Shown: piece after piece, positions 13,226-16,723 of the stretch | Position numbering within the stretch: the stretch's first letter is position 1 | Layout of the letters: each line of letters begins with the position of its first letter | Assembly: GCF_006345805.1 (NCBI RefSeq) | Contig: NW_021834562.1 | Coordinates: 1-47,829 of the forward strand | Reading direction: 5' to 3' | Length of the DNA stretch: 47,829 bases | Origin: Octopus sinensis | Lineage: Eukaryota | Position numbers and translations under genes: made by a program | Notes under the pieces: model-generated | What the model saw: the letters and a program-made list of their open reading frames with translations, nothing else | What the model was told of the DNA's origin: nothing | The model's database searches: none

Positions 13226-13322
13226 ATCTACACATACGCACACACAAAACACACACACACACATACACACACACACACACACACAGAGACACACACAAAC
13301 ACACATATACATATTATACATA

Positions 13323-13502
13323 TATCTGTAAATTTAATATATGACAATTATTCGCTAGCGTGGATTTCCACCTCAGCATCAGAAACTCAGTTTTATCTTG
13401 GCTACCGAATAATTGTCACATATTACATTTACAGATAAATTCCTGTATTTAAATAATATCGGGGTCTCTTTCTTTCTTTTGTTATCTTACCGTTTTTGCC
13501 AT
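13323..13502 (+). mobile_element. HHR-in-hairpin element, copy lacking the 5' half of the ribozyme
   Basis: 32-bp inverted repeat 13323-13354/13406-13437 (30/32) enclosing gcgtggatttcca...gcatcagaaactc-agttttatc. Homologous to 16210-16397. Confidence 0.75.
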
Positions 13503-13529
13503 AGTATATATATATTTTTTTCACGTTTC

Positions 13530-13869
13530 GTGAAGGCGCATGGCTGACTGGTTAGAGCGTCGAGCTTACGATCCTGAGGTTGTGAGTTCGAATCCCAGGC
13601 CGGGATGCGTGTTGTGTTCTTGAGCAAGACATTTTATTTCACGTTGCTCCAGTTCACTCAGCTGTAGAAATGAGTAGCGACGTCACAGGTGCCAAGCTGT
13701 ATCGACCTTTGTCTTTCCCTTGGATAACACTGGTGGAGTGGAGAGAGAAGGCCGTTATGCATGGGCGACTGCTGGTCTTCCATAAACAACCTTGCCCGGA
13801 CTTGTGCCTGGGAGGGTAACTTTCTAGGTGCAATGCCATGGTCAGTCATGACCGAAGGGGGTCTTAGCA
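13530..13869 (+). mobile_element. SINE family C, full length, 10-bp TSD
   Basis: tRNA-like head (tggctgactggttagagcg...gagttcgaatccc), gttgtgttcttgagcaagac central motif. TTCACGTTTC at 13520-13529 and 13870-13879, inside a family B tail. Confidence 0.9.
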
Positions 13870-13929
13870 TTCACGTTTCAGTCATTTGACTGTAGCCATG
13901 TTGGAACACCGTCTTTAGTCACTTCTATT

Positions 13930-14238
13930 ACTACACCATCACTGCTACTACTACTACTACTCCCACCACTACTACTACTAATCCTACTACTACTACCACC
14001 ACCACCATCACTGCTACTACAACTACTATTCTTACCACTACTACTACTACTACCACCACCACCATCACTACTACTACTACTACTACTACTACTGCTGCTA
14101 CTAGTACTACTACCACCACCACCACCACCACCATCACTACTACTATCACCACCGCCATCACTACTACTACTACTACTAATACTACTACCACCACCGCCAT
14201 CACTACTACTATTACTACTGCTGCTCCTACTATTACTG

Positions 14239-14272
<34 letters not shown>

Positions 14273-14275
14273 AAC
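13930..14275. repeat. (CTA)/(CAC) compound trinucleotide repeat
   Basis: Directly visible. Confidence 0.95.
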
Positions 14276-14766
14276 TAATTGAACAGCAATATCAACAACA
14301 ACGCTGAAGGATCTTCTTAGACGTAGCAAAGAGTGGAGAGCGAACCGGATGTAACATCCGATTGGATCAGATTCAGTATCGCAATGCTTGTCCGTCCAAA
14401 ACGTTAGGCGCTGCAGCACGACAAAGTACGAAGCAATTATTCCTGGTTCTTCCAGTTATTCCCGAAGATTTTAATCGATTTTCATTAAGTGTTGACTAGA
14501 ACTGCCCAACCAAAACTAAAAAATTCGACAACAAAAGCAAACCAACAAAATAGGAAACAAGGGAAAAAAACCATCACAGACTAAAATAGCCCCGGATTGT
14601 AAAAGTCTCCTTTTTTTTTTACTTTTTATTTAATTATTTCTTTTATTTAATTATTTCTTTCTTTTTTGGGATACTTATTTATTTTTTGAATGGATCAATA
14701 CTTGTTTTTATCAACAGATCGATCTGTGAATTAGATAAAGAAAATGAGAGAAGAATTGAGACAGAA

Positions 14767-14807
<41 letters not shown>

Positions 14808-14955
14808 GGGAGAGGGTGAGACAGAGAGAGAGAGAGGGAGAGAGAGAGAGAGAGGGAGTGATATGTAGACAAAGACATCGTGTCGGTATCCGATGGTGAC
14901 TCACTTTTATAAATATATAGATCCTAGATCCTTAGAAAGGTCCCTTGAACTTTGT

Positions 14956-14965
14956 ATTATTGTTA

Positions 14966-14996
<31 letters not shown>

Positions 14997-15001
14997 TATC
15001 A

Positions 15002-15032
<31 letters not shown>

Positions 15033-15266
15033 CATTATTATTGGTGGTGGTGCTGGTAGTGGTGCTGTTGTTGTTTTGTTCATTTTATTGTCATCACTAT
15101 CACCCTCATTATCATCATCATCATCACCACCACCATCACCATCATCATCGTCGTCATCGTCATCATCGTCATTATTATTGCTCTTGTTGCTACTACCACT
15201 ACTACTACTACTACTACTATCACCACCACCACCACCACCACCACTACCGTCAATAATAATAATAAC

Positions 15267-15309
<43 letters not shown>

Positions 15310-15350
15310 TAATAACAACAACAACAACAACAATAACGATAACAATAATC
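14956..15350. repeat. Compound trinucleotide repeat (ATT/GGT/CAT/CTA/CAC/AAT/CAA)
   Basis: Directly visible. Confidence 0.95.
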
Positions 15351-15861
15351 AGAAGAAGAAAAAAGAAGAGAAAATAGAAAAAAAAACAGCAAAAGTGGGA
15401 TCGATGGAAATAATTATCTGCGCATGTGTTGTGAAGATTAGCTGAAGAATACTACTGAAAATGGGAGGTAACTATAGATTTTATTTTCATCATCATCATC
15501 ATCACCATTATTATCACCATCATCATTATGGTGTTGTTGTTGCTATTGTTGTTTTCGTTATTGTTTTGGTCTATTGCTCTATTCCTTGGTGAATTACCAG
15601 GAGACAAGAAATTCAGTTATGTGCTGAAAATTATTTACCCCCCCCCCCCCACCCCGACCCACGCCTCGTCACACCGCCACCTACCGATAGGTTATTTACA
15701 TTAATTCAAAGCCTTTTCTATATTCTGCACAAACAGGACAAACACATACATACGCACACACCACACACACACGCTTACATACAATATACACATACGTACA
15801 TACATGTACACATACATGCATATACACAAAGATTCATATATATACATACATATATATATAT

Positions 15862-15894
<33 letters not shown>

Positions 15895-16150
15895 CGCACT
15901 AACGGAAGGGTATGTTCAAATATAGATGAATAATTGATTGAAATGAATAGACGTTCAGAGAAAATGTAATACAATGTATGGTTGGATGGATGGATAGATG
16001 GTTGGATGGATGGATAGGTGTGTATGTTTGCGTATTCGTATGTGTAAGTGTATGTCGGGTATATATATCTATTTATATATATATGTGTGTGTGTGAGAGT
16101 ATAATATTGAAATAATCGAAAGCACAAACATATATATGTATATATATATA

Positions 16151-16188
<38 letters not shown>

Positions 16189-16209
16189 TATATATATATA
16201 TATATATAT

Positions 16210-16397
16210 TGATAAAAATGGTAAGACAACAAAAGAAAGAAAGAGACCTCGATATTATGTAAATAGAGGAATTTCAATTACTCGGTAACCATGATAAAAC
16301 TCCGAGTTTCGGATGCCGAGTTGGAAATCCACGCCGCCATCTCTTCAGTTATCCGCCTCGACATCCGAATAATTGTCACATATTACATTTACAGATA
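16210..16397 (-). mobile_element. HHR-in-hairpin element between (TA)n tracts
   Basis: Homologous to 13323-13502 in opposite orientation. 16366-16397 is identical to 13406-13437. Confidence 0.75.
16293..16353 (-). ncRNA. Type I hammerhead ribozyme, canonical core
   Basis: GAUAA-CUGAAGA-GAUG...UGGA-uu-UCCA...CAUCc-GAAA-CUCGGAG-UU-UUAUC. 5-bp helix I, long interrupted helix II, GUU triplet. Confidence 0.8.
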
Positions 16398-16723
16398 TAT
16401 ATATATATGCTCAGGCACACACAGGTTATTCTTATGTGGCTCAGAGGGGTACGGAACTAGCATGATGCGGCGTGGGTAAAACACCATATGATGTCGGGAT
16501 CCGCCGCTGATATTGGGGTTTGCATTCTATGCCTTAACCCGAGCATAGAACGGGGCTCAACCCTTTGAGCCTGGAGAGGAATAGAATGACTGGTGTGTGT
16601 CTTTTTGTGGCTACCCCCTTCCTATAATAAAAGATGGTTAATTGGCCTGGGTATATGTATATGCAAGTGTTTATACATACTATTTCCCACTTTCCTGCAG
16701 CCTTTTTCTGTTTGCTTTTTTTT

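What the first reader, a model, noticed from the sequence alone, without database searches (positions are those of the whole stretch)
13323..16397. Element family in which a hammerhead caps a 32-bp inverted repeat
Two complementary partial copies reconstruct: IR arm (TATCTGTAAATGTAATATGTGACAATTATTCG) - HHR - inverted arm - pyrimidine-rich tail, about 230 nt in total. The copy at 13323 keeps both arms but lost the CUGAAGA half. The copy at 16210 keeps the full ribozyme but lost most of the second arm. The long stem extends helix I, so cleavage products would stay paired, which could favour religation, circularisation or self-priming. Alternatively it is a fixed Penelope-type inverted 5' pLTR fragment that then amplified.
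Basis: partly seen in the sequence, partly recalled or inferred. Interest (0 to 1): 0.75.

Follow-up and report, generated by a model that had tools for sequence, protein, structure and literature searches.

The report
Truncated Penelope-like retroelement hairpin ends
These two short hairpin-shaped repeats are separate, badly shortened insertions of an abundant Penelope-type jumping gene whose end carries a hammerhead self-cutting RNA motif; the hairpin differs in every copy and is likely a by-product of insertion already described for this class, so the finding is ordinary in kind.

Summary
Both stretches exist as described, but they do not reconstruct one element. They are two independent, very short insertions of a Hydra-clade Penelope-like retroelement (PLE) in (TA)n. 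Each has a direct copy of the element's end (hammerhead, terminus, ~65-nt tail) preceded by an inverted, tail-less, 5'-truncated copy of the same end. The inverted arm is 37 nt at 13323 and about 70 nt (with a 27-nt deletion) at 16397; each junction occurs once in the genome. In 87 other loci, 50 hold such a head-to-head pair; short arms run from 27 to 262 nt, and 51 of 53 pairs carry the tail on exactly one end. The same end lies downstream of a GIY-YIG ORF and brackets a 717-aa ORF with Hydra motifs, a sister of the published Hydra-1_Obim. Inverted truncated pLTRs, one-sided tails, pLTR hammerheads and (TA)n targeting are all published. A fixed IR-capped ribozyme is not supported; in most pairs the arm is antisense to the ribozyme. 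Residual interest: 5' ends pile up just upstream of the ribozyme. The scan noted similar head-to-head PLE hairpins before, on other DNA of this genome.

The parts
13305..13322 (.). TA/CA-rich target, left flank of copy 1
   Evidence: sequence; 61 of 65 tail-less termini elsewhere are followed by a TA/CA run
13323..13359 (-). Copy 1: inverted, tail-less, 5'-truncated pLTR end (37 nt), starting at the inner terminus
   Evidence: 34 of 37 match to the reverse complement of a native end; arm 37, overlap 2
13358..13437 (+). Copy 1: direct pLTR end, truncated inside the helix II loop; holds GAAA (13382-13385) and a helix III with a 2-nt deletion; no CUGAAGA, so no ribozyme
13438..13501 (+). Copy 1: ~65-nt PLE tail (sequence between the two element termini; in full elements it leads into the 5' UTR and ORF)
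   Evidence: alignment A1; L155, L157, L168 continue past it into the ORF
13504..13514 (.). (TA)n right flank of copy 1
16130..16209 (.). (TA)n flank at the tail end of copy 2
16210..16274 (-). Copy 2: PLE tail
16275..16292 (-). Copy 2: remnant of the direct distal arm, followed by a 21-nt deletion that removes the inner terminus
16293..16353 (-). Copy 2: type I hammerhead of the pLTR (helix I 5 bp, CUGAAGA, helix II, GAAA, helix III ACUC-G-GAGU, U at the cut site 16298); cleavage untested
   Evidence: same layout as Hydra hammerheads in File S2 of PMC8557442; no Rfam hit
16356..16397 (+). Copy 2: inverted, tail-less pLTR end, originally about 70 nt; 27 nt deleted between TTCGG repeats, leaving 33 nt plus a 9-nt piece antisense to helix II
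   Evidence: gapped alignment to two native ends
16398..16408 (.). (TA)n flank at the tail-less end of copy 2

Best explanation
The two loci are independent, extremely 5'-truncated insertions of a Hydra-clade Penelope-like retroelement in (TA)n, each made of a tailed direct pLTR end and a tail-less inverted pLTR end, and the hairpin likely forms during integration rather than being a selected RNA structure. Shown: element identity, copy-specific junctions, tail on one end only, TA targets. Inferred from PMC11167929 and these counts: the RT-endonuclease nicks both strands of an AT-rich target; one strand primes reverse transcription at the outer start site (tail end) and the other at the inner site about 65 nt upstream; both cDNAs stop early and are joined head to head, with filler or occasional microhomology. 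Later deletions (27 nt and 21 nt in copy 2, 2 nt in copy 1) wore the copies down. The hammerhead is the ordinary pLTR ribozyme carried along; its cut site does not set the copies' 5' ends.
For: Same end lies in sense downstream of the GIY-YIG ORF end in 21 of 29 loci picked by the protein alone and in 15 of 15 long loci. L155 is pLTR+tail, 717-aa ORF, pLTR, about 2.85 kb, repeats 98.9% identical. L168 has an inverted tail-less end next to the 5' pLTR before the ORF start. ORF motifs RWK, DKT, CxCX5C, CxxC, CxH and no CCHH match the Hydra description; 28 of the first 44 residues equal Hydra-1_Obim, counted by eye. 50 of 87 arm-selected loci hold a pair; 51 of 53 pairs have one tail. 13 of 26 tail-selected loci show an inverted partner, none with a tail. 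Seven kb-scale head-to-head pairs around ORF pieces follow the same rule. Arms of one pair are more alike than arms of different pairs, 91.8% vs 87.9%, 14 pairs. 1 of 96 arm ends lies within 2 nt of the cut site. Papers: PMC8557442, PMC3846280, PMC2377424, PMC11167929, PMC4209133.
Against: The 717-aa ORFs belong to a younger subfamily whose end is only 79-86% identical to the type the window copies belong to; for the window's own subfamily only broken ORF pieces were seen. Pfam and PDB sequence searches gave no RT hit for the 717-aa ORFs and the GIY-YIG hit is below Pfam's cut-off (E 8e-4). No tree was built. Microhomology is weak: 3 nt or more in 8 of 48 junctions vs 10 of 120 in the null, and 35 of 48 show filler or unaligned bases. 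Two of 53 pairs break the one-tail rule as scored (L039, second pair of L113). 37 of 87 loci show no partner arm. One junction does recur (helix III fold-back, 18 loci). Two-strand priming is inferred from another clade; PMC3846280 prefers self-priming on an antisense template.
Confidence: 0.9

Rival explanations
1. One reading: a ~230-nt non-autonomous family in which a fixed 32-bp inverted repeat caps the hammerhead and would favour religation, circles or self-priming.
For: 7 of 48 pairs have this geometry by accident of truncation. For one of them (L073) the hammerhead-constrained fold costs less (6.3 kcal/mol) than in a native pLTR (8.8), so a short arm can favour the fold.
Against: Neither window copy has the geometry; both junctions are unique; short arms span 27-262 nt, median 77; copy 2's constrained fold costs 14.8 kcal/mol because the arm remnant pairs with the core; the tail lies outside the IR and on either arm.
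Confidence: 0.03
2. The hairpin arises by snap-back self-priming of one cDNA or antisense RNA (fold-back on a local palindrome) or by later deletion of the centre of a longer palindrome, not by priming from both target strands.
For: Perfect palindromes centred on helix III at 18 loci; in 10 examined, four variant/orientation types, so repeated origin. One fold-back at helix II (L070). PMC3846280 (passages) argues for self-priming.
Against: Most junctions are asymmetric with filler. Simple fold-back does not by itself explain why the returning arm stops exactly at the other fixed terminus in 51 of 53 pairs.
Confidence: 0.25
3. The copies are monomers of a non-LTR retrozyme (non-coding tandem hammerhead repeat with circular RNA) rather than truncated ends of the coding element.
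For: L004 holds three ~377-nt tandem units, each with hammerhead, tail and ORF start. Many copies stop just 5' of the ribozyme. bioRxiv 10.64898/2026.07.22.740005 (abstract, introduction, part of methods) derives retrozymes from PLE pLTRs.
Against: Window copies are single, not tandem; copy 1 has no core; longer copies continue into the element's 3' UTR and ORF in register.
Confidence: 0.07

Closest known systems
Hydra clade of C-terminal EN+ PLEs, notably Hydra-1_Obim and Penelope-13_HM (Craig et al. 2021, PMC8557442; seen: passages, section 11, supplement parts on Hydra metadata, hammerhead table and protein FASTA passages)
   Same: ORF motifs, short single-ORF element, canonical type I hammerhead near the 3' end with a palindromic helix III (ACUC-G-GAGU as in Hydra-2_aMil and Penelope-16_HM), (TA)n targets; Penelope-13_HM is listed with a 5'-truncated inverted copy at its 5' end
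   Different: A different family: about 64% identity to Hydra-1_Obim over the first 44 residues (by eye) and a different hammerhead sequence; pLTRs are clear here; tail about 65 nt against the 30-40 bp quoted for PLEs
Penelope/Poseidon insertions with inverted pLTR and optional tail: D. virilis Penelope (PMC2377424, passages) and Adineta vaga Pen2a (PMC3846280, passages)
   Same: Direct pLTR plus adjacent inverted, shorter pLTR; inverted repeats that vary in size per copy; tail on one end; palindromes at some junctions
   Different: Other PLE clade; here the whole insertion is often only 100-300 nt and very numerous; target-site duplications cannot be read in (TA)n
Poseidon_Ac in vitro system (Frangieh et al. 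2024, PMC11167929; seen: parts 1-2 of 4, main text and start of methods)
   Same: Two RT start sites that delimit the tail; AT-rich targets; both strands cut and extended; hammerhead cleavage not needed for insertion
   Different: Shown there in vitro, inferred here from genomic copies; there the hammerhead overlaps the ORF start, here the ORF begins about 100 nt after the tail
Metazoan non-LTR retrozymes (bioRxiv 10.64898/2026.07.22.740005, part 1 of 5; PLE hammerheads in PMC4209133, part 1 of 4)
   Same: Type I hammerhead in a short non-coding repeat related to PLE pLTRs
   Different: Retrozymes are head-to-tail arrays with a ribozyme in each unit; these copies are single head-to-head truncations

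Membership tests
Hydra-clade PLE | Single ORF with C-terminal GIY-YIG endonuclease linked to this end | tested here: met
   717-aa open frames in L154, L155; Pfam GIY-YIG E 8e-4 on the L044 C-terminus, below cut-off; end downstream in 21 of 29 loci
Hydra-clade PLE | Reverse transcriptase domain | tested here: inconclusive
   No Pfam or PDB hit; RT-like motifs FDIVDFY, GSYDG, YKDD present and homologous by eye to Hydra-1_Obim
Hydra-clade PLE | RWK motif and DKT in place of DKG | tested here: met
   RMRWK and SDKT in L154, L155 vs section 11
Hydra-clade PLE | CxCX5C linker; CCHH absent; CxxC and CxH around the conserved E and N | tested here: met
   CSCRNKELC, no cysteines between IYE and YVG, CGLC, CPH
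Hydra-clade PLE | Canonical type I hammerhead in the pLTR | tested here: met
   Core intact in 50 of 84 full-length arms, layout as in File S2; no Rfam hit and no covariation; cleavage untested
Hydra-clade PLE | Insertion into (TA)n; length under about 3 kb | tested here: met
   61 of 65 tail-less and 61 of 70 tailed ends abut TA/CA runs; L155 about 2.85 kb
Hydra-clade PLE | Phylogenetic placement with Hydra RTs | not tested
   No tree; reference proteins were seen only in a supplement
PLE insertion structure | Inverted 5'-truncated copy of variable length next to the direct pLTR; tail on one end | tested here: met
Non-LTR retrozyme | Head-to-tail units, each with a complete hammerhead | tested here: not met
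   Window copies are single and head-to-head; copy 1 has no core
Non-LTR retrozyme | Circular or linear monomer RNA | not testable with these tools
   Only assembled contigs were offered

The most novel reading that the evidence does not exclude
The thousands of ~100-300-nt hairpins are run-off products: a PLE dimer starts reverse transcription at both internal sites of the upstream pLTR of one transcript, one per target strand, and both cDNAs run off the RNA's 5' end, a start site about 115-128 nt upstream of the inner terminus, just 5' of the hammerhead. This would explain the near-absolute one-tail rule and the pile-up of 5' ends there (3.0 ends per 100 nt at risk at -99 to -129 against 0.6-0.9 elsewhere; bin chosen after seeing the data), and would make this genome a large natural record of the unresolved PLE integration step.
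Probability: 0.3. Interest if true: 0.5.

Novelty: new member of a known kind. Interest (0 to 1): 0.22.

Why it matters
As a structure it matters little: it is the published footprint of PLE insertion in a further Hydra family. It does warn that stitching partial copies of PLE ends makes false 'IR-capped ribozyme' elements. The useful residue is quantitative. How PLEs make inverted pLTRs and tails is called unresolved in PMC8557442, and this family gives countable rules: one tail per inverted insertion (51 of 53), 5' ends clustered just upstream of the ribozyme and not at its cut site, and a recurrent fold-back at helix III. Young copies with open 717-aa ORFs make these rules testable in vitro for a clade for which the searches made here listed no biochemical study.

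Tried and rejected
Rfam: whole window gave only microsatellite/miRNA noise in the 150 of 184 rows shown; copy 2 alone gave no hammerhead family. Covariation: none in 16 pairs over 12 copies; helices I and II invariant, so uninformative. The repeat finder was swamped by microsatellites. Pfam and PDB on the 717-aa ORF: nothing useful; BLASTP to another PLE ORF weak, E 1e-4. Protein atlas unavailable for this sequence. Microhomology as the main joining route: weak. Cleavage-defined 5' ends: rejected, 1 of 96. Fixed junction amplified: rejected. Neptune or Nematis membership: rejected on linker and CCHH motifs. No tRNA genes and no non-repetitive ORF of 150 aa or more recognised by eye in the window. 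Folding caveat: ViennaRNA cannot model the 1-nt helix III loop or dimers, and even native monomers are not predicted in the active fold. Sampling: 94 of the 100 listed (of 1002) arm matches were fetched, all on the two largest contigs; 3 duplicate loci dropped gives 87; searches used 48 of the 53 pairs (dropped: 2 not scored as one-tail, 1 tandem duplicate, 2 longer than 400 nt); one search dropped 4 of 30 loci already seen; one search dropped 11 of 120. Selection by an exact 32-mer favours little-diverged copies of one subfamily. Supplements of the bioRxiv preprint were not seen and may list octopus families.

Full report
Observation. The window is microsatellite-rich animal DNA in a 2.72-Gb genome; the element's homology to Hydra-1_Obim and the scan's earlier notes point to an octopus. 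Two related stretches lie at 13323-13501 (+) and 16210-16397 (-), and BLAST finds no third copy in the window. Copy 1 has two 32-nt arms, 30 of 32 complementary, around a hammerhead half without CUGAAGA. Copy 2 has a complete type I hammerhead layout and a 21-nt deletion in the distal arm. The arm 32-mer has 1002 exact matches in the genome, a hammerhead-core 31-mer with four degenerate places 3206 and a tail 32-mer 185, controls 0.

The reconstruction is a chimera. Aligned to real, non-inverted ends (L122, L164), the 5' part of each copy is the reverse complement of the element's own 3' end. In copy 1 it runs 37 nt and meets a direct copy truncated at about -82, with a 2-nt overlap. In copy 2 it runs about 70 nt, has lost 27 nt between two TTCGG repeats, and meets a direct copy truncated at about -103. 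The shared '32 bp' is a coincidence of one short arm and one internal deletion. Each junction has one match in the genome at up to one mismatch.

Family anatomy. I fetched 94 of the 100 listed arm matches, 87 loci after removing 3 duplicates. 50 hold a head-to-head pair, 53 pairs in all including tandem duplicates. The short arm is 27-262 nt, median 77. The tail is on exactly one end in 51 of 53; among these the tailed arm is the shorter in 31, the tail-less in 14, equal in 6. The tail-less end stops at the same inner terminus and abuts a TA/CA run in 61 of 65 cases; 61 of 70 tailed ends do so too. A second sample picked by the tail repeats this: 13 of 26 loci have an inverted partner, none with a tail, arms about 40-215 nt.

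The parent element. Long copies extend about 1 kb upstream to the end of an ORF with a GIY-YIG match. Loci picked by that protein alone carry the hammerhead end downstream in sense in 21 of 29 cases, any piece of it in 25, none in 4. Fifteen longer loci all have it. L155 is pLTR with tail, 717-aa ORF, tail-less pLTR; L168 has (TA)n, an inverted tail-less end, a direct pLTR with tail and then the ORF start, that is, the window architecture with the coding part attached. Seven kb-scale inverted pairs also carry one tail. The tail is the sequence between two termini and continues into the 5' UTR in full copies. The ORF shows RWK, DKT, a CxCX5C linker, no CCHH, and CxxC and CxH motifs, the Hydra diagnostics of PMC8557442 section 11. 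That paper's supplement lists Hydra-1_Obim, (TA)n targets, hammerheads with the same helix III, and an inverted 5'-truncated copy on Penelope-13_HM. Against this: HMM and PDB searches did not recognise the RT, no tree was built, and the intact ORFs belong to a younger subfamily (short 3' UTR, CCGAAGA core) while the window copies match an older one (long 3' UTR, CUGAAGA core).

How it most likely works. Shown here: element identity, TA targets, two fixed 3' termini, variable 5' ends, one tail per inverted insertion, arms of a pair more alike than arms of different pairs (91.8% vs 87.9%, 14 pairs, comparisons not independent). Published for Poseidon_Ac in vitro (PMC11167929): both target strands are cut and extended, RT starts at two internal sites that delimit the tail, and hammerhead cleavage is not needed. 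Inferred: each target strand primes at one of the two sites, both cDNAs stop early and are joined head to head. Joining is mostly with filler; microhomology of 3 nt or more is seen in 8 of 48 junctions against 10 of 120 in a null. A minority route is fold-back on the ribozyme's own palindrome: 18 loci have a perfect hairpin centred on helix III, with no catalytic core left, in line with the self-priming idea of PMC3846280 or with later central deletion.

The ribozyme. The core is intact in 50 of 84 full-length arms. It is not an Rfam hit and shows no covariation within the family, so activity is untested. In copy 2 the 9-nt arm remnant pairs with helix II and GAAA in the MFE, and forcing the hammerhead costs 14.8 kcal/mol, against 8.8 for a native pLTR and 6.3 for L073, a chance short-arm copy. 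So a short arm can help the fold in rare copies, but not in these two. Only 1 of 96 arm ends lies at the cut site.

What is left over. 5' ends cluster at -99 to -129, just upstream of helix I: 75 of 191 arms, 3.0 ends per 100 nt at risk against 0.6-0.9 in other bins; 2.5 against 0.5-1.3 with permissive alignment (bin chosen after seeing the data). A pLTR start site with run-off from the upstream pLTR, or RT stalling at the U-run, would explain it; D. virilis Penelope has its promoter in the pLTR (PMC2377424 passages). I could not test this. Five paper searches listed no paper devoted to this family or to such counts, but most subscription journals and Repbase are outside the library.

Verdict. 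Real sequences, ordinary kind: a further Hydra-clade PLE family and its published insertion footprint. Earlier scan notes on other DNA of this genome reached a similar reading. Interest 0.22.

Noticed in passing
L004:500-1760 (G000:C2:33081145-33084365): Three head-to-tail ~377-nt units, each hammerhead + tail + 5' UTR + ORF start, capped by a short inverted arm; retrozyme-like array made from the element's 5' part.
   Followed up: partly
L201-L210 and 8 more loci: Perfect hairpins folded back at the ribozyme's helix III palindrome, tail on one side in 10 of 10 examined, several independent types.
   Followed up: partly
L154-L168: Young subfamily with open 717-aa ORFs has CCGAAGA in place of CUGAAGA in the core and a 6-bp helix I; a natural core variant in the most intact copies.
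   Followed up: no
L031-L120, L171-L200: 5' ends of arms cluster 99-129 nt upstream of the inner terminus, with a smaller peak at 57-58.
   Followed up: partly
L158:7503-8855 and L165:6049-7119: Other PLE ORFs with a CX4CxxC linker and GIY-YIG (Neptune-like, label from PMC8557442 motifs) sit right beside Hydra insertions.
   Followed up: no
L040, L075, L196: Junction filler made of the element's own ORF or 5' UTR sequence, suggesting template jumps within the RNA (read by eye).
   Followed up: no
window 13535-13870 and family D19 (13 copies, e.g. 25915-26033): Dispersed SINE-like repeats with a tRNA-like head (label recalled, not tested); one lies 30 nt after copy 1.
   Followed up: no
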